DNA of 64,000 bases from an uncultured Candidatus Saccharibacteria bacterium (GTDB lineage: Bacteria > Patescibacteriota > Minisyncoccia > UBA6257 > Colwellbacteraceae): the NCBI GenBank assembly GCA_964643135.1, contig CAZXPC010000004.1, forward strand, positions 4,716 to 68,715, written 5' to 3'. Every line of letters starts with the position of its first letter. Positions within the stretch are counted from its first letter, which is position 1. Of the stretch, positions 3,999 through 62,192 are shown piece after piece. A program made the position numbers and the translations under genes. The notes below the pieces were generated by a model, which ran no database searches, was not told where the DNA came from, and saw only the letters and a program-made list of their open reading frames with translations.

Positions 3999-4385
3999 AT
4001 GGATAAAGACACAAAGCAGAAGTTTGGTTACAAAGGCGGTTACGGTTTGGAGTTAATATTAGATCTAAAGGGCTGTGATCTTTCAGACTTAACCCGCGAA
4101 AAGTTGAAGAGATTTTTTGTGGAATTATGCGATCGGATCAAGATGGTAAGGCATGGCGAACCTCTGTATTGGGAGGATACTTCCGATATTCCTCATCTCC
4201 GAGGCATTTCCGGATTTCAATTTATCGAAACAAGCAATGTTGTATGCCATCCAATCTCCATGCAAAATGCGGTATATCTCAACATATTCTCGTGTAAGGA
4301 ATTTGATACTGAAGATGCAGTAAAATACTGCGTCGAATTCTGGGGAGCAAAATCCGAGGTTCACACTGTTGTACCTCGCACATAA
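3999..4385 (+). CDS. S-adenosylmethionine decarboxylase-fold (SpeH-like, pyruvoyl-dependent) protein, possibly divergent
   Basis: GLELILDLKGCD and GISGFQFIETSNVVCHP...NIFSCK align with SpeH GRHLVAEFYECD and [20 protein letters not shown]...DLFTCG, including the E-S/T|S processing site; the H..WPE motif is altered. Confidence 0.55.
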   Translation: MDKDTKQKFGYKGGYGLELILDLKGCDLSDLTREKLKRFFVELCDRIKMVRHGEPLYWEDTSDIPHLRGISGFQFIETSNVVCHPISMQNAVYLNIFSCKEFDTEDAVKYCVEFWGAKSEVHTVVPRT

Positions 4386-4390
4386 AAACC

Positions 4391-4927
4391 ATGTCTTCTG
4401 ATAAGCAGGCGGCAAAGGAAACTATTCTGGAAACAGATAGTTTAGCGGTAACCTCTAGTAAATCGAAAGATCGCGGCTTAGGTGTTTTTGCAAAACATAG
4501 TTTCCGAGCTGGAGAGTTATTATTTGAAGTTAGAGGCCCAATAATGGCAAGAGGAACTAAATATTCATTATCTGTTGGCTTTGGCCAACACATTGAACCA
4601 AAAACAGAAGACGGCAAAGATGATTTCGGACATTACATGAACCACTCTTGTGATCCGAATGCATTTGTAAAAGTCGTAGCCTCATCTAAAACTCCCTACA
4701 TAGAGATCAGAGCGCGCAGGAATATCAAAAAGGGTGAAGAGTTAACATTTGATTACGCCTCATCAGAATATGAGGTAACAATAAATGGAGTTTCTTGCAG
4801 ATGCGACACAAAGCTGTGTAGGGGTAAAATTCATGGATTCAAAGATCTACCTAAAGATATTTTCGATCAGTATAAAAAAGAGGGAATAATTCCCGACCAC
4901 CTAACAAGTATTTCCAGTAATAATTAA
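4391..4927 (+). CDS. SET-domain protein (putative SAM-dependent lysine methyltransferase)
   Basis: NHSCDPN motif, ELTFDY motif and post-SET cysteine cluster CRCDTKLCRG; 5-bp gap to the upstream SpeH-like gene. Confidence 0.8.
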   Translation: MSSDKQAAKETILETDSLAVTSSKSKDRGLGVFAKHSFRAGELLFEVRGPIMARGTKYSLSVGFGQHIEPKTEDGKDDFGHYMNHSCDPNAFVKVVASSKTPYIEIRARRNIKKGEELTFDYASSEYEVTINGVSCRCDTKLCRGKIHGFKDLPKDIFDQYKKEGIIPDHLTSISSNN

Positions 4928-4947
4928 GGTAGCGCCTCTAGACGCGC

Positions 4948-5283
4948 TTATTTGCCTGGAGTAAAAACCATTAAAAAAATACCGATTAGAGCAAAGACTA
5001 TGCCAAGGTATTCCAAGCCGGTCATTTTGTCCCATTCATTAAACATAAACAAACCAACGGCTATCGTGCTCACGGTAAGAAGAGAATCCGCGATTCCCGA
5101 TCCAATCGCAACACCGACCTTGGAAGTGAGTAGCCCATAAGTTATGAACACAAAGGGAGAGACGAGGATGAGGGCGACAAGCCAAATAGAATAGCGGCTA
5201 TCCTGCCTAGCCCAAATCGCACCTATTGAGTTGGCCAGAAGAGCTACTCCAACAGCCATGACTATATAAAGAATATTTTTCAT
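4948..5283 (-). CDS. Small 4-TM membrane protein (SMR/DMT-like)
   Basis: 111 aa, four hydrophobic helices; size and topology of small multidrug-resistance-like proteins. Confidence 0.45.
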   Translation of the reverse strand: MKNILYIVMAVGVALLANSIGAIWARQDSRYSIWLVALILVSPFVFITYGLLTSKVGVAIGSGIADSLLTVSTIAVGLFMFNEWDKMTGLEYLGIVFALIGIFLMVFTPGK

Positions 5284-5413
5284 ATTGCTTAATTATAACA
5301 TTGCGGGCATTCCAGGAATGAAAAACAAAAAGAATAAATAAAAAAGCCGCATTGCCGAATGTGCATACATGGATAGTATGGATTCTAAGCAATGCGGACG
5401 TCGTCATGCGTGC

Positions 5414-6544
5414 TCACTCACCGAGGATCAGGGCGACGAGATCCGGGAAGACCTCGGTGAAGTCGCCGAAGATCTGGAAGTATGGGTCACCCGGCTCCAA
5501 CTTGTCCCAGGTGATCTTCTCCTTGCCTCCGGCTCCGGAGTAGGAACCCCCGCTCATGGGCGTGAGGTGGACCTCGACAAACCCAGCCCAGGCAGGCACG
5601 AGGGCTTCCTGGGTCTCCTGCGTCTCTTCCGCAAGGTAGTCCTTCTTCACATGCGGCACGCCGCAGATGACGAAGTCCGCCGCAATTCCGCCTCCGAGCT
5701 GGAGGAAGAAGATCCTCTTCTGCCTCGCTTCCTTCATGTAGAGCTCCGTGAAGCGGTGCATGTAGGCGTCAGGGGGCTGGATCACGGCGGGGTTGATGGG
5801 CTTCTCCTGCTTGTACTTCGCAAGGAACTCGTCGTTCCCGTTGTAGCAGTAGTAGCTGAAGATGTTCCCCATTGTGCTGTCTTCCCGGCCAGGGACGAAG
5901 ACCTGCACGCCGTGGATCATCGCCTGGTAGGCCCAACAGTCGTCGAGGTTCGCCGTGGGATCGAACGCGATCATCCCTCGGCGGACCGTCTCTTCGAAGT
6001 ACCAGTTCCAGAGATGGCTCTCGCCCTGCGCTTCGGCTTCGCGCCAGAGGCACTCCATCGGGCCGAGCATGACGCGGGTCGACTCGTCCTCCGGCATGGT
6101 CGTCGTAGTGATCCGCCGGTGGCCAGTCCGTCCGAGTTCCTTCTCCTGTGCGGGAGTGAGCTCCGGATACCTCGGGAGATAGGTGTAGTACGAGTGCGCG
6201 ATGGCTCGGTACCAGCTCTCCTCGTAGTTCGCGCCCGTACACGAGATCGCTGCGACCTTGCCCGCGCGGATCAGTCTCGAGAGCGCGATCCCGCCTTCGA
6301 ACGATGAGAAGGCGCCGGCTAGGGTGACAACGAATTTGCCGCCCTCTTCGCCGTGCCTCTTCATCGTCAGGCCGGCATCGACCATGGCGCCGCCGTTGCA
6401 GTGGCGCTTGTTCTTCACAAGATGGTTCGAAACGGGCGAGTTCGGGTTCGGCGTGTAGTCCCGGTCCACAGGCATGAAGAACGCCTGCAATTCGGGACTC
6501 AGCTGTGCCTTCTTCTCTTCGGGGCTGAGTATTTTTTGCGACAT
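5414..6544 (-). CDS. Deoxyhypusine synthase-like protein (DHS / homospermidine synthase family)
   Basis: Alignable along its length with human DHS: [40 protein letters not shown] vs [63 protein letters not shown] vs [33 protein letters not shown] vs IILGGGVVKHH. The gene is about 60% GC against a background of about 46%. Confidence 0.8.
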   Translation of the reverse strand: [376 protein letters not shown]

Positions 6545-6746: not shown

Positions 6747-7304
6747 ATGACCAAGACTGGAAAAGTAGTTTATCGTGGCATGGCGGCGGGCAAGCCGATT
6801 GTTATTCGCTATCCTAAAATGAGCGATGCGAAGGCGGCATTGGAATTTATCAATAAAATCTCTCGGGAAAAGAGCTTCCTTAACATACAAGGCAAGCAGT
6901 TGAACATGAAGGAAGAGCGAGCCTTCCTAAAAAAGAATATCTCTGGCATTAAGAAAAAAGTCTGCGTTCATCTCTTCGTCTTGGCTGGGGATCGAATTGT
7001 CGGTTCGGCAACTATGAATCGCGAGAGTATAGATGCTCAAAAACATAAAGCTGAGTTCGGTATAGTTATGGCCAAGGATATGAGAGGCTACGGGATCGGC
7101 AGACTTTTGATGTCGCTCGTTCTGAAAGAATCAGAGCGTAGTATGCAGGGCGTAAAAATGTTCACTCTGAAAGTTTTTGCTAATAACCCTCTCGCATTTA
7201 GAATGTACAGAAAGTTCGGCTTCAAACAGTTCGGCATCTTGCCCAAAGGAGTAACACACAAAGGCAAGCCCGTTGACGAAATATTCATGTATAAAGACCT
7301 ATAG
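6747..7304 (+). CDS. GNAT family N-acetyltransferase
   Basis: 185 aa; acetyl-CoA binding motif region RGYGIGRLLMSLVL and C-terminal FGF..G pattern. Confidence 0.7.
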   Translation: MTKTGKVVYRGMAAGKPIVIRYPKMSDAKAALEFINKISREKSFLNIQGKQLNMKEERAFLKKNISGIKKKVCVHLFVLAGDRIVGSATMNRESIDAQKHKAEFGIVMAKDMRGYGIGRLLMSLVLKESERSMQGVKMFTLKVFANNPLAFRMYRKFGFKQFGILPKGVTHKGKPVDEIFMYKDL

Positions 7305-7326
7305 AAAACAGGTTAACTTTTTAGAT

Positions 7327-7800
7327 ATGACGATAAAAATTAGAAAAGCTAAACGGGCGGATATTGATGCGATTGTTAAGCTTAATTCGGGGCTGACTGA
7401 CTATCACCACAAGATCGATCCGGACTATTGGAGCCCGAGCAGTAAAACGCGCGGACCTTTTAGGAAATTTATTAGCGGACAAATTGGGAAAAGAAACTCA
7501 CTAAGTCTGGTTGCGGAAGATGATGGCAAGGCTGTGGGATACTTTACGGGCAACATATTGGTACCTAAACCAGCAGTAAAGATTAGAAAGATCGGCCACC
7601 TGGGACATGGATTCTTACTGCCGGAGTATCGTAGCCAAGGTATCGCGAGAAAAGCCGGAGAAATGCTGGTTGAATGGTTTAAGAAAAAGGGCATCCGATT
7701 ACTAGAGCTTTCGGTTGACTCTAGGAATAATGTCGGCGTTCGAGCCTGGGAGGGATTGGGTTTTAAAGAGTTTATGAAAAAAATGAAATTGGAGATATAA
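7327..7800 (+). CDS. GNAT family N-acetyltransferase
   Basis: Internal Met start MTIKIRKAKRADIDAIVKLN; HGFLLPEYRSQGIARKAGEMLVEW motif A; GLGF C-terminal motif. Confidence 0.7.
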   Translation: MTIKIRKAKRADIDAIVKLNSGLTDYHHKIDPDYWSPSSKTRGPFRKFISGQIGKRNSLSLVAEDDGKAVGYFTGNILVPKPAVKIRKIGHLGHGFLLPEYRSQGIARKAGEMLVEWFKKKGIRLLELSVDSRNNVGVRAWEGLGFKEFMKKMKLEI

Positions 7801-7963: not shown

Positions 7964-8517
7964 TTTACTATGTCACGGGAAGCGATATTAAATTTAAAAC
8001 CGCACAGGATTGTCTAAAAGAGCATGGCATTGATATTGTTCAGAAAACGCTGGATATTAAAGAAATCCAGAGCGAGTCGATCGAAGAGATAGCAATCGAT
8101 AAGGCTAAACGAGCTTTTGAGACAATCAAAGAACCCCTGTTCATTAATGATTCCGGCTGGTTTTTCGCAGGACTCAATGGCTTTCCCGGCGCCTATATGG
8201 CCTATATTAATAGATGGCTTACGGCTGACGATTTGATAAATCTCATGAAAGGAAAAGATAACCGGGAGGTAATTCTAAAACAAGTTGTCGTCTATATCGA
8301 TGAAAAAGGACATAAAATTTTAGAACATGATTCTATCGGCAAGATTTTAGAAAAACCAAGCATTAATATCGGACGACCGTCAGAAATGGTTTCGTCCTTC
8401 TCGGGTGATGATCTGGCCTTAACAGACCAAAGGGCTAAAGGAATTAAAAATATCGGGCCAGAGCAGGAACTCTGGAGTGAATTGGCAGATTGGCTAAGAG
8501 AAACTAAGAGACCCTAA
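7960..8517 (+). CDS. Ham1/ITPase-family non-canonical purine NTP pyrophosphatase paralog 1 (N-to-S variant in the TGN motif)
   Basis: YYVTGSDIKFKTA, LDIKEIQSESIEEIA and FINDSGWFFAGLNGFPGAYMAYI match ITPA motifs FVTGNAKK, IDLPEYQGEPDEIS and ALGGLPGPYIKWF. Confidence 0.7.
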   Translation: MIYYVTGSDIKFKTAQDCLKEHGIDIVQKTLDIKEIQSESIEEIAIDKAKRAFETIKEPLFINDSGWFFAGLNGFPGAYMAYINRWLTADDLINLMKGKDNREVILKQVVVYIDEKGHKILEHDSIGKILEKPSINIGRPSEMVSSFSGDDLALTDQRAKGIKNIGPEQELWSELADWLRETKRP

Positions 8518-12339: not shown

Positions 12340-12513
12340 GACCTGCTTCTCCCCGCCTCTCCCGCTCCCCGGCCCCTCTCCCTCAGGAACCAGGATAATC
12401 CCGCCTCCAAACTCTCTTCCGCCCCTCGGAACCAGGATATTTTTTCTACTGAAAAAATTCCCTACCGCTCGGCTACCCGCCTCCGCAGTTTCCTCAGAGC
12501 GAAACCGAGTTCT
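12340..12513. repeat. Dispersed intergenic repeat, module I (tandem partial copy plus a full 114-nt copy at 12400-12513)
   Basis: 12400-12513 is nearly identical to the reverse complement of 47757-47870 and related to 47572-47635; a shorter direct copy of the ggaaccaggata core lies at 12370-12399. Confidence 0.8.
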
Positions 12514-12569
12514 CGGCTCTGTAGAGGGAGCTTAGAGTAGTAGGAAGAACCTCCAAACTACTCTGAGGA

Positions 12570-12697
12570 GCCTCTCGGAGACGCGTAGGCGTCGAGAAGA
12601 AGAAAATCTAGCAAGATTTATCTGTGGTGACGAAGGGTAGTTTGGGGTTCTGACACGGGAGAGTGGCAAGAGGGATGATATAGCTGGGGGCGCAGAT
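12570..12697. repeat. Dispersed intergenic repeat, module IV
   Basis: Shares gcgtaggcg.cgag...gaagaaaat...gatgatatagctgggggcgc with 52250-52364; the 20-mer gatgatatagctgggggcgc is identical at 12674-12693 and 52345-52364. Confidence 0.65.
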
Positions 12698-37136: not shown

Positions 37137-38432
37137 TTAGATGTTGTGGATCATGCAACCAAGGATCGTCCCAGCACCCGGGTCGGCAGAGAAGGTAGCT
37201 GTTAAGGTGTCTGCAGTTGGTACAACCTTGTTCAAGCTGACAGAGTTAGCTGAGGCGTCTAGTGAACAGGCCACTACTGCCGTTGACCTTAAACCAGTCA
37301 TAGTGAACGCGTTTGAAGTGGCGCCACCGCCGTAAGTCGTGCTGCGGATCATTGCAAACTGGTTCTGAATCAATGAAGTGGTAGCTGGAGGGGAAGTCGG
37401 GGTAAGAACAAGGGCTCCTGTACCGTACTGGATTGTTGTTTTAGATGTAGTGTTAGATGAACCAAGAACGATTGTCTGAACAGCTGCGCCAGTACCGATC
37501 TGGATACCGTGGGCAGTTGCGCCGTTACCGATCAAGATAGCGCCAGCTGCAGTACCACCTTCTAAGGTAAGCGTTGAGCTTGCGTGAGCAGAACCAACGG
37601 CAACAAGGTCAGCGCCGGTTGCGTCAGCGCCAACGTTGATAGTTGTTGTTTTTGCAACAGCATCGTTACCAACGTTCAAGTTTCCTGTACCAGCGTTGAT
37701 GGTGGTAGCAGAAGTTGAATTGGTTGAGCCGAGAACAACAGTGTTTACGGCTGCGCCAGTACCGATCTGGATACCGTGGGCAGTTGCGCCGTTACCGATC
37801 AAGATAGCGCCAGCTGCAGTACCACCTTCTAAGGTAAGCGTTGAGCTTGCGTGAGCAGAACCAACGGCAACAAGGTCAGCGCCGGTTGCGTCAGCGCCAA
37901 CGTTGATAGTTGTTGTTTTTGCAACAGCATCGTTACCAACGTTCAAGTTTCCTGTACCAGCGTTGATGGTGGTAGCAGAAGTTGAATTGGTTGAGCCGAG
38001 AACAACAGTGTTTACGGCTGCGCCTGAACCAATGCTTATTGTTTTTGCAGTAGCACCGTTACCGATCGAGATACCGCCAGTGTTTGCGGCACCGATTGAA
38101 ATGGTTGATGATGTTGCGTTGTCGAACAATGTGTTAGCGCCCCCGGTGACTGCGCCGTTGTAGGTAGTGGCACCGGTTGCGGTAGCGTTACCAAGCGTTA
38201 ATGTGCCCGTGGTCAAAGCGCCGCCCATCAAGATGTTCGATGCGGCTGCGGCTTCGAGGGTTAAGGCTCCGCTGCTGGTTGCTGTTAATGCGCCAAAAGT
38301 CAAAGTTGCTGAAGCTCCGTTGACTCCGACTACTCCGACCATCAAGGACAGTACGCCCAAGATGAGTCCTAATTTTGTTAATTTGTTTTTAATCATTTTT
38401 GTAAAATTTGTAATTGTTTTTTGGGGAATCAA
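37137..38432 (-). CDS. Secreted Ala/Thr/Gly-rich repeat protein (adhesin-like) containing a perfect tandem duplication
   Basis: Signal peptide; an 89-aa unit (…GSTNSTSATTINAGTGNLNVGNDAVAKTTTINVGADATGADLVAVGSAHASSTLTLEGGTAAGAILIGNGATAHGIQIGTGAAV…) occurs twice identically, then a third diverged copy. Confidence 0.7.
   Translation of the reverse strand: MIPQKTITNFTKMIKNKLTKLGLILGVLSLMVGVVGVNGASATLTFGALTATSSGALTLEAAAASNILMGGALTTGTLTLGNATATGATTYNGAVTGGANTLFDNATSSTISIGAANTGGISIGNGATAKTISIGSGAAVNTVVLGSTNSTSATTINAGTGNLNVGNDAVAKTTTINVGADATGADLVAVGSAHASSTLTLEGGTAAGAILIGNGATAHGIQIGTGAAVNTVVLGSTNSTSATTINAGTGNLNVGNDAVAKTTTINVGADATGADLVAVGSAHASSTLTLEGGTAAGAILIGNGATAHGIQIGTGAAVQTIVLGSSNTTSKTTIQYGTGALVLTPTSPPATTSLIQNQFAMIRSTTYGGGATSNAFTMTGLRSTAVVACSLDASANSVSLNKVVPTADTLTATFSADPGAGTILGCMIHNI
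37483..38016. repeat. Perfect 267-bp direct tandem duplication (2 copies) inside the adhesin-like gene
   Basis: Identical antisense ORFs at 37636 and 37903 are offset by exactly 267 nt; the sequence is nucleotide-identical across both units. Confidence 0.85.
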
Positions 38433-38684
38433 ATTCTTATATCTTCGATTTTTGTTTTTTGGAGTAAACCGACCTTAAGATGTTTTACTCTAAAAAAACA
38501 AATGTTTAATCGAGTCTAAAAATTTGAGGTTTATAATTTTATACTTTTCCTTCTTATGATTATCACGAGCTTCTAGACGGCTCACGAGAATCTGCGACCT
38601 TTCCATAAACCGCATTTTGCGGATTGCAATTATTATAACATAGCAAGGCTTCGGGTGCTGAAAGATCAAACTGTGGATATCTTC

Positions 38685-38820
38685 CCGCCTCCGAAATCCG
38701 ATCTACCCTTCAGGGCACAGCATAAATCTCTGCTGAGATTTTGCTTTCCGCTCACCCGCCTACGCGGGCTTCCGCGAATCCCTTCAGAATAGATTCGGAT
38801 TTCTCGGCTATGCTAAGGAG
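38685..38820. repeat. Dispersed intergenic repeat, module II (hairpin/TIR element) containing module III
   Basis: Termini cccgcctccgaaatccgatctaccc ... agattcggatttctcggctatgctaaggag are mutually inverted and homologous to the termini of 52031-52223; interior 38731-38787 is homologous to 47668-47727. Confidence 0.75.
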
Positions 38821-38889
38821 TGTGTTGTGAAAATTGCAATCGACGCAAAGGGTCACAATATAAAACGTCTCTTCGGGTAGAAAATTACA

Positions 38890-38917
38890 AACGGCAACCG
38901 TGTGGTGTTGCCGTTTG
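38890..38917. terminator. Intrinsic terminator 3' of the 38941 gene
   Basis: aaacggcaac-cgtgtggt-gttgccgttt perfect 10-bp stem flanked by A/T. Confidence 0.6.
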
Positions 38918-43941: not shown

Positions 43942-44370
43942 TTTGTAAATTAATTCGTAAAATCTTTTTGTATTATTTGGATGATACCTTGCAAGTTACC
44001 ATCATCGACCAGCTGCTCTACACATGTGAGGTTTGTGCCTTTCCCACCTCGGCCCCTCAGCCCACTTGTGAGGTGAGGGGCTAAGGCGAGGTATAAAGCG
44101 GCGAGCTGATGTTTGCAAAGATCCTAGTAACAATTTCGGACGGGGCAGATCTTAAAAAAGAAATGACCTCGAGTGAGGCGATGACGTGAACGAAACAGGT
44201 ACGAAGGATTCACCTCGGAAACGAGGAGACGCCTTGCGCCTGTAAAAATATTTGCTTAGGTAGGCCTCACTTCCTGCCTAAATCAATATTTACTTAATGC
44301 TAGCACGTGAGATCACATGCTTGCAATAGGGTAAAACGCGGCGTCAACCGCAACGTTACATGGCAGGTTC

Positions 44371-44392
44371 GACAGCTTGCGCGCCAACTCGG
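44371..44392. repeat. Dispersed intergenic repeat, module V (22-mer shared with 52146-52167)
   Basis: gacagcttgcgcgccaactcgg identical at both sites, within a 460-nt structured non-coding spacer. Confidence 0.6.
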
Positions 44393-44403
44393 ACAAGCTA
44401 AGT

Positions 44404-47571: not shown

Positions 47572-47870
47572 CCCGCCTCCGAATCTGCCTCTGCCCCTCG
47601 GAACCACAGGTGATCTCTACTGAAACTCGCCCTCCCTCATCCCACTCCGGGAAACACAATAATTTCTTGCTAGAAATTTTGTTTTTGCTCACCCGTCTTC
47701 ACGGGCTTGCGCAGATTCCCTTCATGGAACAAGGTCGGGCTAGTCTACATAGCCAAAGAACTCGGTTTCGCTCTGAGGAAACTGCGGAGGCGGGTAGCCG
47801 AGCGGTAGGGAATTTTTTCAGTAGAAAAAATATCCTGGTTCCGAGGGGCGGAAGCGAGTTCGGAGGCGGG
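47572..47870. repeat. MITE-like element: 37-nt terminal inverted repeats (module I) flanking an internal module III
   Basis: 47572-47608 (cccgcctccgaatctgcctctgcccctcggaacca) vs reverse complement of 47834-47870 (cccgcctccgaactcgcttccgcccctcggaaccagg); 47757-47870 is about 95% identical to reverse complement of 12400-12513; interior 47668-47727 homologous to 38731-38787. Confidence 0.8.
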
Positions 47871-49959: not shown

Positions 49960-50041
49960 GGGCGGATGGTGGAACTGGCATACACCTGCGTCTCAGAAGC
50001 GCAGTCCGCAAGGATTGAGGGTTCAAATCCCTCTCCGCCCA
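49960..50041 (+). tRNA. tRNA-Leu (anticodon CAG), class II with long variable arm
   Basis: Manual fold: acceptor GGGCGGA/TCCGCCC; U8; 3-bp D-stem GTG/CAC with 11-nt D-loop GAACTGGCATA (compare E. coli tRNA-Leu GAAUUGGUAGA); anticodon stem TGCGT/GCGCA with loop CTCAGAA (U33, anticodon CAG); 13-nt variable arm; T-arm GAGGG-TTCAAAT-CCCTC; discriminator A73; CCA not encoded. Confidence 0.85.
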
Positions 50042-50086
50042 CAATAGTTATAAAAATAATTAGAAAAATAATATTAATTAATAGGT

Positions 50087-52027
50087 ATGTTAAATACTAA
50101 CACTGGTGCAGCAAGCGACCTTACAGCTAGCCCTTCCACGGCGGAAGGCCAAAAAGCCGAAATAAAAAGCAGCGAGACAAAAAGCAGAGAGTCGAGGCCA
50201 AGAACCGGCGGCCGAGGACCCGGACGATCGGGGGGGCACGGCGGACATAAGTCCGGCGGGCATTCCCATTCCGGCGGCGGACATTCTGGTGGACCTGGCC
50301 ATGTTTCCAAAATAACCTCACCCTTAAAGGCTAAGGTTATTAAAACTGTTAAGCATGAGGGAGCGGCTGATTCAACCCGGCTCGTCCCGCTTGGAGGCTT
50401 GGAAGAAATCGGCCGCAATATGTCTTATGTCGAACACAAGGACGAAATTGTGATTATCGACATGGGCATTCAATTCCCAGAGGAAGAAACGCCCGGCGTG
50501 GATTTTATTATCCCCAACATTGATTCATTGGTGCCGAAACGGGCCAATATCCGCGGCGTGGTTTTGACGCATGCTCACTTTGACCACATCGGCGCCGTCC
50601 CCTACCTAATCGGCCGCTTGGGCAACCCGACAATTTATACGACCAAGCTGACCAAGGCGATTATCGAAAAACGCCAGGAGGAGTTTGTAAACGCGCCGAA
50701 ATTGAACATTGTAGTCGTGGACAGCGGCGACAAGGTTAAGATCGGCAAACAGTTGGAGTTAGAATTCTTCGGCGTGGATCACACGATTCCCGACACGGTC
50801 GGTGTAGTCGTCAAAACGCCTCAGGCTAATATCGTCCACTTTGCCGATTTCAGGCTCGATTATAACGATGCCGACGAACCGCAGCGCTTGGATGAATTTA
50901 AACGGATCGGCGAGCTTGGCATCCACACCTTTATGGTGGACTCGACTAACGCCGACAAGGCCGGACACTCGCTGTCTGAAAAGGTGGTGAAGAAAAACTT
51001 GGAAATCATTATCAATAAGGCGGGCGGGCGCATCATTCTCTCGACCTTCTCATCGATGTTGACGCGTATCGCCGAAATTATTGCGATCTGCGAGAAATCG
51101 AAGCGGAAGGTTTTCTTAAACGGCCGCTCGATGAAAGATGTGGTGCAGATCGCGCAGACTTTGGGCTATGTTAAGTTCGGCAAAGATTCGGTTCTGCCGA
51201 TGGAAGAAATGCACAAGTACAAAGATCATGAGATTATGATCATTACAACCGGCGCGCAGGGCCAAGAAAACGCCGGCCTCATGAAAATTGTGAACGGCGA
51301 GCACAAACACGTAACAATTAAGCAGGGAGATACGATGATCTTCTCATCGTCGGTTATTCCGGGCAACGAGCGGTCAGTGCAGAACCTTAAGGACAACCTC
51401 TGCCGCCAGGGCGCCAAGGTTTACAACACTGATATTATCGACATCCATGCCTCCGGCCACGCGCCCAAGGAAGACTTGGAAATAGTGATCAAGCTGATTA
51501 AGCCTAAATTCCTGATGCCGGTTCACGGCCACTACTTTAAGCGCCACGCGAATGGCGAAAACGGCGTGGAGGCGGGCATGAAGAAAGAAAACATTAAGCT
51601 GTTAGACAACGGCCGAGTTGCACTCTTAACCAACAGCACATTCACAGTTACTGAAGAGGAGGTGCCAGCGCACTACGTGATGGTGGACGGCCTAGGCGTC
51701 GGTGACGTCGGCGAAGTTGTCTTGCGCGACCGGAAGATACTCTCGCAGGAAGGCATGGTGGTCATTATTACGACAATCGACCGCAAGACCGGCAAGGTTT
51801 TAAAGAACCCTGACATAATTTCGCGTGGATTTATCTACCTTAAGGAAAATCAGGAGATCTTGAACGATATTCGAAAGAAAATTCGCATCATTACGGGTAA
51901 GATTCGCGTGGGCGATGCGCTGGACGCAGACTACTTGAAAAACATGATGCGCGACCAGATTGGGCAATACCTCTACAACAAGACTTATCGCCGACCGATG
52001 GTGCTGCCGGTTATTATTGAGATTTAG
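50087..52027 (+). CDS. rnj: Ribonuclease J (metallo-beta-lactamase/beta-CASP) with Gly/His/Arg-rich N-terminal extension
   Basis: HAHFDHIGAVPYL (HxHxDH), beta-CASP motifs and C-terminal domain; first roughly 80 aa low-complexity (GGRGPGRSGGHGGHKSGGHSHSGGGHSGGPGH). Confidence 0.85.
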   Translation: MLNTNTGAASDLTASPSTAEGQKAEIKSSETKSRESRPRTGGRGPGRSGGHGGHKSGGHSHSGGGHSGGPGHVSKITSPLKAKVIKTVKHEGAADSTRLVPLGGLEEIGRNMSYVEHKDEIVIIDMGIQFPEEETPGVDFIIPNIDSLVPKRANIRGVVLTHAHFDHIGAVPYLIGRLGNPTIYTTKLTKAIIEKRQEEFVNAPKLNIVVVDSGDKVKIGKQLELEFFGVDHTIPDTVGVVVKTPQANIVHFADFRLDYNDADEPQRLDEFKRIGELGIHTFMVDSTNADKAGHSLSEKVVKKNLEIIINKAGGRIILSTFSSMLTRIAEIIAICEKSKRKVFLNGRSMKDVVQIAQTLGYVKFGKDSVLPMEEMHKYKDHEIMIITTGAQGQENAGLMKIVNGEHKHVTIKQGDTMIFSSSVIPGNERSVQNLKDNLCRQGAKVYNTDIIDIHASGHAPKEDLEIVIKLIKPKFLMPVHGHYFKRHANGENGVEAGMKKENIKLLDNGRVALLTNSTFTVTEEEVPAHYVMVDGLGVGDVGEVVLRDRKILSQEGMVVIITTIDRKTGKVLKNPDIISRGFIYLKENQEILNDIRKKIRIITGKIRVGDALDADYLKNMMRDQIGQYLYNKTYRRPMVLPVIIEI

Positions 52028-52030
52028 TCA

Positions 52031-52223
52031 TCCGCCTTCGAAATCCGAATCTACCTTTCGCTTAGCTCTCTCCTCGTCGAGGTGCTTCCAAGCTGTCTCG
52101 GGAGACCGCTCACGGCCGCTTGGCCTAGGGGTTTAGTCTCCCTGCGACAGCTTGCGCGCCAACTCGGGGGAGCTAGAGCTCAGGATAGATTTCGGATTTC
52201 TCTCGGCTATGTAGAGCTAAGAG
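52031..52223. repeat. Dispersed intergenic repeat, module II (hairpin/TIR element) containing module V
   Basis: Termini tccgccttcgaaatccgaatctacc ... gatagatttcggatttctctcggctatgtagagctaagag are mutually inverted and homologous to 38685-38820; contains the 22-mer at 52146-52167 shared with 44371-44392. Confidence 0.75.
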
Positions 52224-52249
52224 CCGTAAACCATAGCCCCGCAGGGAAC

Positions 52250-52364
52250 ATCGCGCAGGAGCGTAGGCGACGAGCGCGAAGAAAATTTTGAGCACAAAAT
52301 TATTCTGTTTCCCGAGGAGGCTGTGGTTGGAGGCTCGGGGTGGAGATGATATAGCTGGGGGCGC
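52250..52364. repeat. Dispersed intergenic repeat, module IV
   Basis: Homologous to 12570-12697 including the identical 20-mer gatgatatagctgggggcgc. Confidence 0.65.
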
Positions 52365-53690: not shown

Positions 53691-56600
53691 TTATAGCTTT
53701 TTGAGGCCGATCCAAACGTCTTCGCCGCTGATTTTGGTTTCGGAAAGGGCGGTGAATTTGTCGGTTTTCTTGTAATGGATGGCAGCGGTGCCGGTGTTGC
53801 TCTTAAGAGCATCGAGGTGGGCTTCGATCGCGGCTTGGATATTTTCGGAAGCCTCGATATAAAGCTCGATCTTGTCGCTCGGCTTCAGATCGGCATCTTG
53901 GCGGAGGGCTTGGACGGCGCGGTTAAGTTCGCGCATGGCGCCTTCGCGTTTTAGATCTTCGGTCAGGTTGGTGTCTAAAATAATTTCTTCCTTAGCGCCT
54001 TTGTCGAAGATCACTTTCTTAACATTAATCTCATCGGACAAGACTTCCAGCAGTTCGCCATCAAGGTTTAGGGGGTTATTTCTAATGGTGAGGCTGGCTA
54101 ACGGCTGACGAACTTTGATATTAGCTTCGGCCCGCTTGGCCAAACCGGCGGCGGCCAGGCGGCGAACTTCTTCCATCTTTTTATTTAGATCTTTGTCGAT
54201 AAATTTGGCGTGAACTTCGGGCCAATTGTCGAGGTGGACGGATTTATCGCCCGCGGCCATGGATTTGTAGAGCGCATCGGCAAAAAAGGGCGCGAAGGGA
54301 GCAATCATTTTCGAGATTTCGAAAATCACAAAAAGCAGAGTTTTAACCATGTCGTTGCGATCGCGGCTGCGGCGGATATACCAGCGCGAGAGGTCGTCGA
54401 CCAGGCTTTCCAGCGAGCGGGCGGCGAGGCCGATTTCATACTTATCCAGGCTATCGGTAGCAAATTGGACGGTTTCGCTGAGGCGGGACAAAATCCACTT
54501 ATCTAAAACGTGGTTAGGGTGCGGGTGCTCGGGCACGGGGTTGGGCGTGTGTTCAAGCGTTTCGGAAAAGAGATATGAGTTGTAGAGAATGCCGAAAAAC
54601 CTACGTGAAACTTTGCCGAGATCGGCTTCGTCAAAATCTTTATTCTCACCGGGCGGATTAACAGTATAGAAATACCAGCGGATGACGTCGGCGCCGTATT
54701 TATTGATCATTTCCCACGGATCGACGATATTGCCCTTTGATTTAGACATTTTTTGGCCGAATTTATCGTGGATTAGGCCAAGCGAGATCACGTTTTTGTA
54801 AACTTCTTTCCGGCCGAGAATGACACCCACCGCGAGCAGAGTGTAGAACCAGCCGCGGGTTTGATCCATGCCTTCGCTGATATAATCCGCCGGGAAACCG
54901 ACGCCGATCTTGTCGATCAGATCTTTATTTTCGAACGGATAGTGGACCGAGGCAAAAGGCATGGCGCCGGAATCAAACCAGACATCAGCCACGTCGGGGA
55001 TGCGCTCCATGCGTACCATTTTCCTAGAGTTCTTTTTGCCTTTATTCTTTGGTATACATTTCTCGCACTTCAAATGGACCCGGTCAATATAGGGGCGGTG
55101 AAGGTCAACTTTGCCGACCTTGTTGTATGAAATATTTTTGAAAATGATCTCGCGCCACTCGCCCGGCTGGAGCGGAACCACTGCCATGGAATCTTCGTTA
55201 GAAAGATTCTTCACGGCGGCCTCGAGCATCCAGAGAGGATCGCCGTGGCTTACAATCAAAATAGTTTTGCCTTCATGGGCTGAATCTACTTCATCCAAGA
55301 ATTGGAAAACCCTCTCTTTTACTTGGGTCAGAGTTTCCCCGCCTGAAGGGGCCTTAAGGAATTTCTCGGTAACGTTGTCGAAAAAGCTGTTATATTCTTT
55401 GGAAGTTTTCCAGTTGAAAATACCGGCATTGATTTCGCCCAAACGCTTGTCCTCGATAACCTTGGCGCTGATAGTTTTGCTCAATATTTTGACCGTCTCT
55501 TTAGCGCGAGCGAAAGGCGAAACGTAGATGAGGTCGATTTTTTCTTTTTTGAGGGCTTTCGCGGCAGCATCGGCGGCAGCCTTGCCTTCTTTGGTTAAGT
55601 GAGAAATTTTGCCCTTGGTTTCGGGGCCGGAAGCCATAACATCTTTAACATTATGTTCGGCTCCGCCGTGGCGCATCAGAATAAAGCGGTTGTTTTGAAC
55701 GGCGCTGGACTCAAGGTCGGCCAGGCTTTCTACAACCTTCACGTGGCCTTCTTTACACTGCCAGATCGGCAGAGGGGTGGCCCAATATCTTTCGCGCGAG
55801 ATAGCCCAATCTTTAGCTTCTTTGATCCATTCGCCGAACCGGCCGGTTTTGATTGAAGCGGGAATCCAGTTGACCTTATTATTAGCGGCCATCAATTTGT
55901 CACGCAAAGTCGACATAGCGATAAACCACGAATCCATGGCGTAATAAAGAAGCGGGGTCGAACAGCGCCAGCAAAAAGGATATTCGTGGGTATAAGGTTC
56001 GGTTTTGACTAGGAAATTTTCTTTGTCGAGATGATCGAAGATGCGCGATTCGGTGTCTTTCGCTTTGGCGTAAAAACCGCCGAGCTTGGGCACGTCTTTA
56101 ATGAAGAGGCCGGACTTCTCAACGGTGTGATGCTGAGGAAGCCCTAGCTTTTTGCCTAAGTTGTAGTCGTCTTCACCATACATGACGGCCGTGTGGACCA
56201 CTCCGGTGCCGTCGGTTGTCGTTACAAAATCAGCCGGGTAGACATGATAAGCTTTTTTGGCTGTTTGGCTTTTTTGCTGGAAGGGCTTAATGTCCCAAAG
56301 CGGCTCGTAAGCCAGGCCAACCAAATCTTTGCCTGTTAAAACGCCTATTTCTTTGCCTTTGGTGGTCTTAGCAAGAGGCATGTCGTGGAAATAGACGCCC
56401 TCTTTGTCGTGGATATCCTTGGCGATAATCCAATATTCCGGCTCGCCCGACCGACTGGCACCGCCGACTTTGTGTTCGATCGTGACATATTTGATCTTCT
56501 CCCCAACCGCCAAAGCCACGTTGCCCGGCAAGGTCCAAGGAGTTGTAGTCCACGAGAGAATATAAACATTACCGTTGGCTTTTAAATCTTTAGAAATTTT

Positions 56601-57263
56601 CTGACCTTTTTTGACGCGAAATTTGATATAGACCGAGGCGTCGGTTGTCTCTTTATAACCCTGGGCGATTTCGTGAGAAGAAAGCGCGGTACCGCAGCGC
56701 GTACACCAAGGCACAATTTTGTGGCCTTTATAGAGCAGTTTCTTTTGCCAAGCCTGGGCTAAGATCCACCAAAGCGATTCGATATATGTTTTTTTATAAG
56801 TAACGTAAGGATTTTTAAGATCAACCCAGTAGCCGGTGCGCTCGGTCATCCGCTCCCACTCGTCTTTATACTGCCAAACCGATTCTTTGCAGCGCTGATT
56901 GAATTCGGCAATGCCGTATTTTTCGATATCTTTTTTAGACTTGAAGCCGAGCGCTTTTTCAACTGCTATTTCCACCGGCAGGCCGTGAGTATCCCAGCCG
57001 GCTTTGCGGGGCACGTAATAACCCTTCATCGATTTATAACGGGGAATGATGTCTTTATAGCTTCGGGAGAGCATGTGGTGAAGGCCAGGCGAACCGTTGG
57101 CAGTCGGCGGGCCTTCCCAAAAGTTAAATATCTTAGGCGCTTCCTCCCCCTTCATCTGCCTTCGTTGGGCGAGAGATTTTTCGAAAATATTATATTTTTT
57201 CCAAAAGTCGAGAACTTTTTCTTCGAGATTGGGGAGATTGAATTCTTTTATGTTCTTCAGCAT
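53691..57263 (-). CDS. ileS: Isoleucine--tRNA ligase carrying an inserted histidine-phosphatase (PGAM-like) domain
   Basis: Class I motifs PPTANGSPGLHHMLS (HIGH) and KMSKSKGN; editing domain; zinc-knuckle CWRC/CEKC. Residues about 526-700 (nt about 55164-55688) contain RHGGAEHN ... LIVSHGDPLWML, the two catalytic-His motifs of the phosphoglycerate-mutase / histidine-phosphatase superfamily, inserted between IWQCKEGH and DLHRPYID. Confidence 0.85.
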   Translation of the reverse strand: MLKNIKEFNLPNLEEKVLDFWKKYNIFEKSLAQRRQMKGEEAPKIFNFWEGPPTANGSPGLHHMLSRSYKDIIPRYKSMKGYYVPRKAGWDTHGLPVEIAVEKALGFKSKKDIEKYGIAEFNQRCKESVWQYKDEWERMTERTGYWVDLKNPYVTYKKTYIESLWWILAQAWQKKLLYKGHKIVPWCTRCGTALSSHEIAQGYKETTDASVYIKFRVKKGQKISKDLKANGNVYILSWTTTPWTLPGNVALAVGEKIKYVTIEHKVGGASRSGEPEYWIIAKDIHDKEGVYFHDMPLAKTTKGKEIGVLTGKDLVGLAYEPLWDIKPFQQKSQTAKKAYHVYPADFVTTTDGTGVVHTAVMYGEDDYNLGKKLGLPQHHTVEKSGLFIKDVPKLGGFYAKAKDTESRIFDHLDKENFLVKTEPYTHEYPFCWRCSTPLLYYAMDSWFIAMSTLRDKLMAANNKVNWIPASIKTGRFGEWIKEAKDWAISRERYWATPLPIWQCKEGHVKVVESLADLESSAVQNNRFILMRHGGAEHNVKDVMASGPETKGKISHLTKEGKAAADAAAKALKKEKIDLIYVSPFARAKETVKILSKTISAKVIEDKRLGEINAGIFNWKTSKEYNSFFDNVTEKFLKAPSGGETLTQVKERVFQFLDEVDSAHEGKTILIVSHGDPLWMLEAAVKNLSNEDSMAVVPLQPGEWREIIFKNISYNKVGKVDLHRPYIDRVHLKCEKCIPKNKGKKNSRKMVRMERIPDVADVWFDSGAMPFASVHYPFENKDLIDKIGVGFPADYISEGMDQTRGWFYTLLAVGVILGRKEVYKNVISLGLIHDKFGQKMSKSKGNIVDPWEMINKYGADVIRWYFYTVNPPGENKDFDEADLGKVSRRFFGILYNSYLFSETLEHTPNPVPEHPHPNHVLDKWILSRLSETVQFATDSLDKYEIGLAARSLESLVDDLSRWYIRRSRDRNDMVKTLLFVIFEISKMIAPFAPFFADALYKSMAAGDKSVHLDNWPEVHAKFIDKDLNKKMEEVRRLAAAGLAKRAEANIKVRQPLASLTIRNNPLNLDGELLEVLSDEINVKKVIFDKGAKEEIILDTNLTEDLKREGAMRELNRAVQALRQDADLKPSDKIELYIEASENIQAAIEAHLDALKSNTGTAAIHYKKTDKFTALSETKISGEDVWIGLKKL

Positions 57264-57334: not shown

Positions 57335-57476
57335 ACAAACCCTCCCCTCAGGAACCGGGATAAATCTCTTCCAGCGAGAGATTTTCCCTCAGCGCTCAGC
57401 CAGTGGTCGCCGTAATATAAAACGGCGCACCTAGCTCCACTGGCTTCCGCGATGTTCCTTCAGAAAGGGTTTGTTC
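57335..57476. repeat. Dispersed intergenic repeat (related to module I core ggaacc.ggata) with inverted termini, in the ileS 5' leader
   Basis: cacaaaccctcccctcaggaaccgggataaatc ... gaaagggtttgttcg; termini acaaaccct / agggtttgt inverted; several internal hairpins (gccagtgg...ccactggc). Confidence 0.55.
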
Positions 57477-57490
57477 GTTATGGAAACCAC

Positions 57491-57523
57491 AAAAAAGCCC
57501 CCGGCTAAGAAAATGCGGGGGCG
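57491..57523 (-). terminator. Intrinsic terminator 3' of the 57530 gene
   Basis: Minus strand: cgcccccgcattttcttagccgggggc followed by tttttt. Confidence 0.6.
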
Positions 57524-57529
57524 ATCGGC

Positions 57530-61425: not shown

Positions 61426-61497
61426 CCACGCCGAAGATTAAAGCCATTTTATAAAAATTGATTTTGAATCGGAGCGGGGGTAGGCTGAAATTAGCAT

Positions 61498-62136
61498 ATG
61501 AAGGCGGTTATATTCGATATTGATGGTACGCTCACGCCGGAAATCTCGTGGCTATTTTTGACCGAAGCTCTGGGCGCGTCTAAAAGCGAGCATTTAGAGA
61601 TATTTAACAGCATGAAAGCCGGTGAAATTGACCTGCCCCTGGCAACCAGCCAGTTACTTCGACTATGGCAAGCGAGCGGACAGGCTAATTTGGGAAAACT
61701 TAGAGAAATTTTTGACAAAGTAAGTCTGCGTGAAGGAGCGCTCGAAATCGTGAATTACCTGCGAAGCGAAAATTATAAACTCTGCCTCATCTCCGGTTCG
61801 ATGGGCTTATACGCCGAGACGATTGCTAAAAAGTTAGGGGTTGAAGCGTATTTCAGCAACACCGAGCTGATTTTTGATAAGGCCGGCCAATTAATCAATT
61901 TTAAATATCAGCCGGACCAGGGCGCGATCAAACTAAAACAGCTTATGGAATTTTGCGCGCGCGAAAATATAACGCTCAAGGATTGCGCGGTGATCGGCGA
62001 CAGCGGAAACGATTTGGAAATTTTTAAAGCAACCGGACACGGCATTATTTTGAAGGGCGGCACACCGGAGCCCACCCTCGGGGACGCTGCTTGGAAAAAA
62101 ATAGAGGATTTGGGGGAAATTAAAGCCATTTTATAA
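61498..62136 (+). CDS. HAD-superfamily hydrolase (phosphoserine-phosphatase-like)
   Basis: Motif I FDIDGTLT, motif II ISGS, C-terminal GDSGNDLE. Confidence 0.75.
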   Translation: MKAVIFDIDGTLTPEISWLFLTEALGASKSEHLEIFNSMKAGEIDLPLATSQLLRLWQASGQANLGKLREIFDKVSLREGALEIVNYLRSENYKLCLISGSMGLYAETIAKKLGVEAYFSNTELIFDKAGQLINFKYQPDQGAIKLKQLMEFCARENITLKDCAVIGDSGNDLEIFKATGHGIILKGGTPEPTLGDAAWKKIEDLGEIKAIL

Positions 62137-62192
62137 AAATTGATTTTGGTTCTGCCCGGTAGTACGCTGAAATTAGGATTCGAGGGTTTGAC

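What the first reader, a model, noticed from the sequence alone, without database searches (positions are those of the whole stretch)
38731..38787. Compensatory base change in a conserved hairpin shared by two repeat copies (38731-38787 and 47668-47727)
The motif gctcaccc-G-C-cta-C-G-cgggctt in copy 1 corresponds to gctcaccc-G-T-ctt-C-A-cgggctt in copy 2. The stem cccgc/gcggg becomes cccgt/acggg, a C-G to U-A double change that preserves pairing. Flanking primary sequence (…attttg.ttt..ctcacccg… …cgggctt.cgc..a.tccctTCA) is also conserved. Covariation argues that selection acts on an RNA structure. The family may therefore encode small structured RNAs rather than being merely selfish DNA.
Basis: seen in the sequence. 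Interest (0 to 1): 0.6.

Follow-up and report, generated by a model that had tools for sequence, protein, structure and literature searches.

The report
Structured palindromic repeat family in Patescibacteria
The small hairpin with a compensatory base change is real and is one stem of a 110-190-base fold-back repeat that occurs seven times in this window and in many uncultured ultra-small (Patescibacteria) bacteria. The repeat matches no catalogued RNA family and behaves like a dispensable REP/MITE-type intergenic element, not a small-RNA gene.

Summary
The hairpins are CCCGC-CTAC-GCGGG at 38755-38768 and CCCGT-CTTC-ACGGG at 47692-47705, and they differ by a C:G to T:A double change.

The hairpin ('hpB') is the variable peripheral stem of a larger element:
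- a long outer stem (P0);
- a three-way junction;
- a second hairpin (hpA, loop TGCT);
- a short helix (P1) that carries hpB.

The window holds seven copies. A stem-blind pattern scan of metagenomes returned about 68 true members. A covariation model built only from those finds all seven window copies (E = 4e-19 to 2e-4).

Over 81 distinct copies, 92% of pair cells are paired against 62% in shuffles, and 31 of 32 pairs show two-sided changes. Rfam has no match.

The RNA-gene reading is only partly supported:
- copies lie in either orientation;
- they usually start about 15 nt after a stop codon;
- they lack promoters and U-tracts;
- they are absent from the same sites in relatives;
- G·U pairs are no commoner than A·C.

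Best reading: a new REP/BIME/MITE-like structured palindromic repeat of Parcubacteria. Whether its structure matters as RNA or as single-stranded DNA is unresolved.

The parts
38699..38809 (+). Copy c1 of the repeat (model hit). The full fold-back extends to about 38684-38825 through the arms GAAATCCGATCTA / TAGATTCGGATTTC.
   Evidence: Model R1, 51.6 bits, E = 1.9e-11; fold.
38719..38746 (+). c1 hairpin hpA: AGCATA-AATCTC-TGCT-GAGATT-TTGCT, with a bulged T. The stem covaries between copies.
   Evidence: In this hairpin 10 of 11 pairs show two-sided changes and 99% of cells are paired.
38755..38768 (+). c1 hairpin hpB (the finding): CCCGC-CTAC-GCGGG. It is closed by helix P1, CGC 38749-38751 with GCG 38774-38776.
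47636..47746 (+). Copy c2. hpA is 47661-47678 (AATTTCT-TGCT-AGAAATT). hpB is 47692-47705 (CCCGT-CTTC-ACGGG).
   Evidence: Model R1, 45.3 bits, E = 1e-9.
47750..47856 (-). Copy c6 ('type C' cap, hpB GGC-TACCC-GCC), tail-to-tail with c2. Over the module 47757-47870 it is 98% identical to c5.
   Evidence: Model R1, 26.3 bits, E = 1.4e-4; inverted repeat I1.
12414..12520 (+). Copy c5 (type C cap), tail-to-tail with c4.
   Evidence: Model R1, 25.9 bits; (I1).
12538..12647 (-). Copy c4. hpA is AAATCT-TGCT-AGATTT. hpB is GACGC-CTAC-GCGTC, two more two-sided changes relative to c1.
   Evidence: Model R1, 26.7 bits, E = 1.1e-4; fold.
52218..52326 (-). Copy c7, the copy closest to the metagenome consensus. 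It lies downstream of the RNase J gene (50087-52027).
   Evidence: Model R1, 80 bits, E = 3.7e-19.
57337..57485 (+). Copy c3. Its hpB is replaced by the longer stem GCCAGTGG/CCACTGGC, with a nested hairpin inside an enlarged loop.
   Evidence: Model R1, 25.9-38.3 bits; fold z = -4.1.
52031..52200 (.). Long fold-back with c1-like arms (TCCGCCTTCGAAATCCGAATCTACC / GGATAGATTTCGGATTTC) but an unrelated centre. It is a related arm module, not a cap copy.
   Evidence: Fold; motif hits.

Best explanation
The hairpin is the variable peripheral stem (hpB) of a modular, imperfectly palindromic intergenic repeat about 110-190 nt long.

Anatomy (shown):
- A long outer stem, P0, of 15-45 bp, with conserved internal loops.
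- P0 closes a three-way junction 'cap'.
- The cap reads: GGAA-ACAGAAUA-[6 bp]-UGCU-[6 bp]-UUUCUUC-NNNC-UC-[hpB, 4-8 bp, loop mostly CNNC]-UGC-GNNN-RWG-UUCC.
- Unpaired nucleotides are conserved and every helix covaries.

Also shown:
- The family is abundant: 7 copies in this 64-kb window and up to 4 per 10-15 kb elsewhere.
- It is spread through Parcubacteria-type Patescibacteria.
- It is absent from Rfam.
- It is intergenic and typically starts about 15 nt after a stop codon, in either orientation.
- It is present or absent at orthologous sites.

Inferred: it works like the REP/BIME, ERIC and MITE class of elements.
- It is a dispensable, non-autonomous DNA repeat.
- Its conserved cap is the unit that spreads or is homogenised.
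- The cap is probably recognised in folded single-stranded form by a trans-acting protein that is not encoded in this window.
- The arms are built from local flanking sequence by fold-back or template-switch copying. This keeps them perfectly complementary without needing RNA-level selection.
- Because it sits in 3' UTRs and between cistrons, it is probably co-transcribed. Its rod would then act as a 3'-end barrier or processing structure for the upstream mRNA. That would be a side effect or co-opted role, not a small-RNA gene.
For: - Structure and covariation. RNAalifold on 56 stem-blind metagenome copies gives 32 pairs, 26 of them with two-sided changes. On 81 distinct copies, 92.2% of cells are paired against 62.3% in shuffles, 31 of 32 pairs have two-sided changes, and the slid controls score at most 0.151 against 0.725.
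- Family membership of the window copies. Model R1, built without any window sequence, finds all seven.
- Stem-blind recovery. About 68 of 86 pattern hits have fully complementary N6/N6 stems with many different sequences. The rest lack both pairing and the downstream motif.
- Not catalogued. Rfam gives no match at gathering thresholds on the window and none at E <= 1 on 14 loci.
- Context. 68 of 79 copies are intergenic with mixed orientation. For 51 of 84 copies a stop codon lies within 60 nt, with a median gap of 15-17 nt: 30 sense, 16 antisense, 5 both. Flanking genes are housekeeping.
- Dispensable or mobile. The SecG-SBP gap is 337 nt with c2+c6 in the window, 38 nt in L002 and 3 nt in Ca. 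Colwellbacteria L096. L093 carries a pair between iPGM and the holin gene, where the window has a 9-nt gap. The syntenic 21.5 kb of GCA_016176525.1 has no copy.
- Cap versus arms. Their arms are 52-53% identical, against 50% for shuffled sequence. Each copy's own two arms are 73-90% complementary.
- Arm copied from coding sequence. L090 7295-7305 encodes the last codons of RNase J, and its reverse complement lies at 7436-7446.
- No wobble excess. G·U 43 against A·C 74 in 2548 cells. In the arms, 99 against 117.
- BIME-like tail-to-tail pairs: c2/c6, c4/c5 and L093.
Against: - No transposase, RAYT, reverse transcriptase or integrase is encoded in the window. No partner protein was identified anywhere.
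- No clean target-site duplication was found.
- Unpaired cap nucleotides stay conserved in genomes where the element's G+C ranges from 31% to 58% and in at least two candidate orders. That looks more like a functional RNA or a conserved protein-binding site than a typical short-lived MITE.
- MITEs and REPs conserve their arms or termini, whereas here the centre is conserved and the arms are not.
- There is a weak excess of the sense orientation (30:16, p = 0.054).
- The proposed fold-back copying of arms rests on one clear case plus statistics. It is not a reconstructed insertion event.
- No expression data were available.
Confidence: 0.55

Rival explanations
1. A genuine, uncatalogued class of structured RNA. 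The three-way-junction cap on a long rod is transcribed, alone or as a 3' UTR or intercistronic segment. A conserved Patescibacterial RNA-binding protein or RNase binds it, and selection on RNA folding produces the covariation.
For: - Strong covariation in all helices with conserved unpaired nucleotides, a bulged U and conserved loops.
- hpB tolerates large insertions, as peripheral RNA stems do (c3, L008, L011).
- Conserved across Colwellbacteria-like and Zambryskibacteria-like hosts and across a wide G+C range.
- Weak sense-orientation bias relative to the upstream gene (30:16).
- The position right after stop codons implies co-transcription.
Against: - About a third of the gene-adjacent copies are antisense to the adjacent gene.
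- No promoter or terminator in c1 or c2, and no U-tract after the rods.
- G·U is not enriched over A·C.
- Copies are dispensable at orthologous sites.
- Identical caps carry unrelated arms, and one arm copies coding DNA. Both point to DNA-level processes.
Confidence: 0.3
2. The elements are the intrinsic, possibly bidirectional, transcription terminators of these genomes. The conserved cap would be incidental.
For: - Located a median of 15-17 nt after stop codons, in both orientations.
- Very stable long hairpins.
- Some copies are flanked by A and T runs, for example L019 and L016.
Against: - Only 11 of 61 rods are followed by a run of four or more T, no more than the control sides.
- c1 and c3 sit beside separate canonical terminators at 38888-38917 and about 57490-57525.
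- Many copies lie between tightly spaced co-directional genes, with 12-20 nt on each side.
- Relatives lack them at the same gene ends.
- A terminator role does not explain the conserved cap nucleotides.
Confidence: 0.1
3. The structure is not selected at all. The paired changes are a mutational by-product: quasi-palindrome template switching copies one arm onto the other, acting on recently spread selfish DNA.
For: - G·U and A·C mismatches are equally rare.
- Arms are near-perfect and locus-specific.
- An arm is copied from coding sequence.
Against: - The non-palindromic features are kept across distant hosts and across co-existing old sub-families. These are the junction strands, the bulge, the TGCT loop and the asymmetric internal loops.
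- That needs purifying selection or a sequence-specific partner.
- Template switching alone would erode bulges and asymmetric loops towards perfect palindromes.
Confidence: 0.1

Closest known systems
REP / BIME elements and REPINs of Proteobacteria (mobilised by RAYT transposases), including the GTAG- and CGTC-tagged REP super-families (PMC3733652)
   Same: - High-copy extragenic palindromes, mostly just downstream of coding regions, between co-directional or convergent genes, in either orientation.
- Units often paired in opposite orientation, as in c2/c6, c4/c5 and L093.
- Stems preserved by paired changes.
- Plausibly co-transcribed.
- Dispensable at individual loci.
- The tetranucleotides CGTC and CTAC (the complement of GTAG) recur here.
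   Different: - REPs are simple hairpins of 20-40 nt whose stem sequence is conserved, with the tag unpaired at one end.
- Here the unit is 110-190 nt with a three-way junction.
- The conserved part is the centre and the arms are locus-specific.
- CGTC and CTAC sit in the hpB loop.
- No RAYT was found in the window.
ERIC/IRU, Correia, RUP/BOX and Rickettsia palindromic elements (bacterial MITE-like structured repeats)
   Same: - Imperfect palindromes of 100-200 nt in intergenic, transcribed positions, in both orientations.
- Modular sub-types.
- Presence or absence polymorphism between relatives.
- RNA-foldable.
   Different: - Those families keep conserved terminal inverted repeats and usually target-site duplications.
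- Here arms of the same sub-family are no more alike than shuffled sequence.
- No clear duplication was seen.
- The cap is conserved across candidate orders, not across species.
Integron attC sites
   Same: - Palindromes conserved in structure but variable in sequence, placed directly after a stop codon.
- Extrahelical bases and a variable, sometimes branched, terminal structure.
- attC sites function as folded single-stranded DNA.
   Different: - attC conserves the outer R/L boxes and varies the centre, the reverse of this element.
- attC sites sit in co-oriented cassette arrays next to an integrase.
- Here copies flank housekeeping genes in both orientations and no integrase is present.
Curated structured RNA families (Rfam 15)
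   Same: Covariation strength and architecture (junction, conserved loops, variable peripheral stem) resemble a bona fide RNA family.
   Different: No family matches at gathering thresholds or at E <= 1. The copy number, mixed orientation and dispensability are unlike riboswitches, ribozymes or housekeeping RNAs.

Membership tests
REP/BIME (RAYT-associated) | Short (20-40 nt) simple imperfect palindrome with a conserved stem sequence | tested here: not met
   The element is 110-190 nt with a three-way junction. Its stems vary while its loops are conserved.
REP/BIME (RAYT-associated) | High-copy, extragenic, mostly 3' of genes, in either orientation, often in inverted pairs | tested here: met
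   Seven copies in 64 kb; 68 of 79 intergenic; median 15-17 nt from a stop codon; tail-to-tail pairs.
REP/BIME (RAYT-associated) | Unpaired GTAG or CGTC tag at one end of the palindrome | tested here: not met
   CGTC (25 copies), CTAC and CGAC occur, but as the hpB loop, not as a terminal tag. Definition taken from PMC3733652.
REP/BIME (RAYT-associated) | A cognate RAYT (Y1 transposase) gene in the genome, flanked by the repeats | not testable with these tools
   None among the 50 window ORFs scanned with Pfam. The rest of the genome could not be retrieved.
MITE | Conserved terminal inverted repeats shared by copies | tested here: not met
   Arms of nine same-sub-family copies are 52-53% identical, against 50% for shuffled sequence. 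Only the window genome shows a partly shared CCCGCCTCCGAA head.
MITE | Target-site duplication | tested here: inconclusive
   Only an ambiguous A/T-rich repeat (CTAAATAA) near the ends of the c2/c6 composite. Nothing consistent elsewhere.
MITE | Presence or absence polymorphism at orthologous sites | tested here: met
   SecG-SBP, iPGM-holin and the syntenic block L096.
Independent small-RNA gene | Own promoter and terminator in conserved positions, giving a discrete transcript | tested here: not met
   No sigma-70-type promoter in c1 or c2. Flanks are unique, so no conserved upstream promoter exists. No U-tract. Expression itself could not be tested.
Intrinsic terminator | G+C-rich stem followed by a U-tract | tested here: not met
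   11 of 61 rods are followed by a run of four or more T, the same as the control sides. Separate canonical terminators lie next to c1 and c3.
Any Rfam 15 family | Covariance-model match | tested here: not met
   No hit on the window at gathering thresholds. No hit on the elements at E <= 1 in 14 loci.
Integron attC | Conserved R''/L''-L'/R' boxes at the outer ends, cassette array, nearby integrase | tested here: not met
   The outer arms are unique and the centre is conserved. Neighbours are dispersed housekeeping genes and there is no integrase.
Cis-regulatory leader or riboswitch | Fixed sense orientation upstream of a consistent gene class | tested here: not met
   Mixed orientation, 3' of unrelated genes.

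The most novel reading that the evidence does not exclude
A previously undescribed, Parcubacteria-wide element in which a conserved 60-90-nt three-way-junction 'cap' spreads or is homogenised among loci. At each locus the cap seeds a long inverted duplication of the adjacent DNA, including gene ends. This yields hundreds of locus-specific perfect rods per small genome. The rods could be bound as RNA by a conserved host factor that controls operon mRNA fate, or they could form by a hairpin-primed or template-switch DNA mechanism not described for bacterial repeats.
Probability: 0.25. Interest if true: 0.8.

Novelty: new variant of a known kind. Interest (0 to 1): 0.6.

Why it matters
Patescibacteria have very small, streamlined genomes, so an element that fills many intergenic gaps (about 1 per 3-10 kb in some genomes) is unexpected.

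It offers three things:
- a ready-made covariance model for annotating these genomes;
- a marker of insertion and deletion dynamics in organisms that cannot be cultured;
- a clean natural test of whether covariation implies RNA function.

On the third point, all helices covary, yet orientation, dispensability, the lack of a G·U excess and the locally templated arms point at least partly to DNA-level processes.

If a protein partner exists, it would be a new nucleic-acid recognition system of a major uncultured lineage.

Tried and rejected
- Source genome. Exact-protein look-ups for window proteins found nothing. The single genome-collection scan, with a 20-mer of the c5 module, gave one chance hit in a Polyangiaceae MAG, so the remaining copies of this genome could not be collected.
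- tRNA origin. The c5/c6 module looked faintly tRNA-like by eye, but ARAGORN finds only tRNA-Leu at 49960-50042. Rejected.
- Phage origin. A viral-contig scan with the family pattern gave one chance hit.
- TIGR-Tas arrays, which are CPR-associated. They are tandem 36-nt box C/D units, unlike these dispersed rods. Rejected.
- Strand assignment by wobble pairs. Inconclusive. Cap helices have G·U 13 against A·C 7 once three chance hits are removed. The arms have 99 against 117.
- Strand assignment by folding energy. Energies favour the reverse complement by 6 kcal/mol overall and by 1.6 kcal/mol for the cap. That conflicts with the wobble count in the cap, so I draw no conclusion from it.
- Sigma-54, ECF or sigma-70 promoter readings of the GGAACC...GATAAT head. 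They did not fit by eye, and the scans found none.
- T-box upstream of IleRS for c3. Wrong strand, and no Rfam hit.
- Literature. Four searches found no description of this family.

Full report
**1. The observation**

- Copy 1 reads GCTCA-CCCGC-CTAC-GCGGG-CTT, with the stem at 38755-38759 and 38764-38768.
- Copy 2 reads GCTCA-CCCGT-CTTC-ACGGG-CTT, with the stem at 47692-47696 and 47701-47705.

Two copies cannot show significance, so I looked for more.

**2. More copies in the window, and a larger structure**

Reading, nhmmer and later a covariance model gave seven copies:

| Copy | Coordinates | Strand |
|---|---|---|
| c1 | 38699-38809 | + |
| c2 | 47636-47746 | + |
| c3 | 57337-57485 | + |
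| c4 | 12538-12647 | - |
| c5 | 12414-12520 | + |
| c6 | 47750-47856 | - |
| c7 | 52218-52326 | - |

The hairpin of the finding, which I call hpB, has other stem sequences in other copies.
- In c4 it is GACGC/GCGTC.
- In c3 it is GCCAGTGG/CCACTGGC, with an enlarged loop.
- The D6 alignment of c3 from the repeat finder was out of register.

A second hairpin, hpA, lies upstream in every copy. Six of the seven have the loop TGCT or TACT (c3 has a 7-nt loop, TCCAGCG), and the stems differ: AAATCTC/GAGATTT, AATTTCT/AGAAATT, AATTTTG/CAAAATT and AAATCT/AGATTT.

The 'terminal inverted repeat' seen around c2 (I1 and I2) is really two copies lying tail to tail, c2 with c6. The same holds for c4 with c5.

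**3. Source and relatives**

The window is ordinary chromosome of a Parcubacteria-type Patescibacterium.
- Its genes are housekeeping: aminoacyl-tRNA synthetases, glycolysis and pentose-phosphate enzymes, RNase J and SecG.
- There is no transposase, reverse transcriptase or integrase.
- The best named homologues are Ca. Colwellbacteria.

The genome itself could not be retrieved. The nearest syntenic contig, L002 (69% identical iPGM), has one copy at 8388-8498. Its hpA stem is ATCCGCC/GGCGGAT, with the same TGCT loop.

**4. The family at large**

I scanned metagenome contigs with a pattern that leaves both stems free: ACAGAATA-N6-TGCT-N6-TTTCTTC. The window's c7 and the L002 copy share this pattern.
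- The scan returned 86 stretches.
- About 68 have fully complementary N6/N6 segments with many different sequences. They also carry the conserved downstream GCGCTC-[hairpin]-TGCGCGATGTTCC and flanks that pair with each other.
- The remainder have at most 4 of 6 pairs and no downstream motif, so they are chance hits.

RNAalifold on 56 of the true copies gives the following architecture:
- a long outer stem, P0;
- hpA, whose stem extends through AGAAUA/UUUCU with a bulged U;
- a helix P1 (NNNC/GNNN);
- an internal loop (UC / UGC);
- hpB.

Of its 32 pairs, 26 have two-sided changes.

Model R1, built only from these metagenome copies, finds all seven window copies, with E from 3.7e-19 (c7) to 1.9e-4. 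It also finds extra copies in the loci that do not fit the seed pattern.

On 81 distinct sequences:
- 92.2% of cells are paired, against 62.3% in shuffles (0 of 500 shuffles reach it);
- 31 of 32 pairs have two-sided changes;
- the covariation score is 0.725, against at most 0.151 for slid partners.

Even the positions fixed by my pattern covary in the non-seed copies. hpB has at least a dozen stem sequences, and its loop is mostly CGTC, CTTC, CGAC or CTAC.

Rfam has no match at gathering thresholds on the window, and none at E <= 1 on 14 loci.

Hosts include:
- Colwellbacteria-like organisms and Zambryskibacteria-like organisms;
- the named genomes GCA_016176525.1 and GCA_001824295.1, each with a copy.

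The G+C content of the element ranges from 31% to 58%.

**5. Where copies sit**

- 68 of 79 copies are intergenic, and the remaining overlaps are with doubtful ORFs.
- Neighbour arrangements are mixed: 21 co-directional with the element sense, 14 co-directional with it antisense, 9 divergent and 8 convergent.
- For 51 of 84 copies, an ORF of at least 100 aa ends within 60 nt of the model hit, with a median gap of 15-17 nt. Of these, 30 are sense, 16 antisense and 5 both (p = 0.054).
- The rods often begin within a few nucleotides of the stop codon and sometimes overlap the coding sequence.
- Many copies fill the whole gap between tightly spaced co-directional genes.
- Rods are not followed by T-runs (11 of 61, as on the control sides).
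- c1 and c3 lie next to separate canonical terminators.
- No sigma-70-type promoter lies in c1 or c2.

**6. Dispensability**

- The SecG-SBP gap is 337 nt in the window (holding c2 and c6), 38 nt in L002 and 3 nt in Ca. Colwellbacteria L096.
- L093 has a tail-to-tail pair between iPGM and the holin gene, where the window has 9 nt.
- The 21.5-kb block of GCA_016176525.1 that is syntenic with the window has no copy, and another 22 kb of that genome has one.
- A copy follows RNase J both in the window (c7, minus strand, 191 nt after the stop) and in L090 (plus strand, 17 nt after the stop). The two are in opposite orientation.

**7. Cap versus arms**

Within one lake metagenome, nine copies of one sub-family were compared.
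- Their caps are 91% identical.
- Their 30-nt arms are 52-53% identical, against 50% for shuffled arms.
- Each copy's own two arms are 73-90% complementary.

In L090 the outer arm ATTATTGAGAT (7295-7305) is the end of the RNase J reading frame (VIIEI*, the same in the window). Its reverse complement lies at 7436-7446, just beyond the element. The arms therefore appear to be built from local sequence.

Distinct cap sub-families coexist on single contigs such as L014, L061, L058 and L069. The 'type C' cap (GGCTACCCGCC) recurs in the window, L093 and the lake contigs, and in the window and L093 it is the minus-strand member of a tail-to-tail pair.

**8. RNA or DNA?**

- G·U pairs number 43 and A·C 74 among 2548 cells.
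- After removing three chance hits, the cap helices have 13 G·U against 7 A·C.
- In the arms, wobble-type mismatches favour neither strand, 99 against 117.
- Folding energies favour the reverse complement by 6 kcal/mol with flanks and by 1.6 kcal/mol for the cap alone. This could reflect loop and stacking parameters, so I draw nothing from it.

From general knowledge, RNA families under structural selection usually show clearly more G·U than A·C on the transcribed strand. That signature is absent here.

Taken together, four observations fit DNA-level maintenance of complementarity (single-strand hairpins, or template-switch correction) at least as well as RNA-level selection: mixed orientation, dispensability, locally templated arms and the missing wobble excess.

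On the other hand, the conserved non-palindromic features need purifying selection or a sequence-specific partner. These features are the junction strands, the bulged U, the TGCT loop and the asymmetric internal loops.

**9. Conclusion**

They generalise to a widespread and apparently uncatalogued family.

The family works most like REP/BIME, ERIC or MITE elements: dispensable, high-copy, post-stop-codon palindromes in either orientation and often paired. It fails the defining features of each of these. It has no short simple palindrome with a terminal tag, no conserved terminal repeats and no identified transposase. I therefore file it as a new variant of that kind, not as a member.

An independent small-RNA gene is unlikely. 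A protein-bound RNA role as a 3' UTR or intercistronic element remains a serious rival.

The mechanism that spreads the cap and builds the arms is inferred, not shown.

Noticed in passing
window 43942-44360 (and L002:7817-8330, L091:1985-2630, L092:4515-5078): A noncoding block upstream of the 1273-aa PG_binding gene has long invariant stretches across four relatives whose iPGM proteins are only about 66-69% identical to the window's. Examples are GGATGAT..TTGCAA.TTACCATCATCGACCAGCTGC, AGCTGATGTTTGCAAAGATCCTAGT and CTTGGGTAGGCCTCACTTCCTGCCCAAAT. There is no Rfam hit at E <= 1. It is a candidate unknown structured RNA or leader.
   Followed up: partly
window 53691-57263 (-): The isoleucyl-tRNA synthetase carries an inserted histidine-phosphatase (His_Phos_1) domain at residues 528-691. 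The same architecture is present in Ca. Colwellbacteria loci L096 and L097, so it is a lineage feature and not an assembly artefact.
   Followed up: partly
window 52031-52200 and 44370-44400: A long fold-back has arms like those of c1 (TCCGCCTTCGAAATCCGAATCTACC / GGATAGATTTCGGATTTC) but an unrelated centre. A 31-nt piece of it (52145-52175) recurs at 44370-44400. This suggests that arm modules can combine with different centres in this genome.
   Followed up: partly
window 37416-37949: A 267-nt tandem duplication (91% identical) lies inside ORF 37137-38432, which has no Pfam match. A related 34-nt sub-repeat is also present.
   Followed up: no
window 61437-61504 and 62119-62186: A 68-nt direct repeat (82% identical, ATTAAAGCCATTTTATAAAAATTGATTTTG...) lies immediately in front of two consecutive plus-strand genes. 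It may be a duplicated promoter or leader.
   Followed up: no
L092:157-207, 998-1048, 5059-5109: A separate repeated hairpin family in a relative (…CUCCUCGGGUAC(U)CUCGAGG…) lies at gene ends. It looks like a simple terminator-type repeat without the cap.
   Followed up: no
window 3999-6544: Adjacent genes encode an AdoMet-decarboxylase-like protein, a SET-domain protein and a deoxyhypusine-synthase-like protein. This is an unusual combination for a bacterium with a reduced genome.
   Followed up: no
L042:172-280 and 309-705: One family member lies about 30 nt from a tmRNA gene (Rfam RF00023, 105.9 bits).
   Followed up: no
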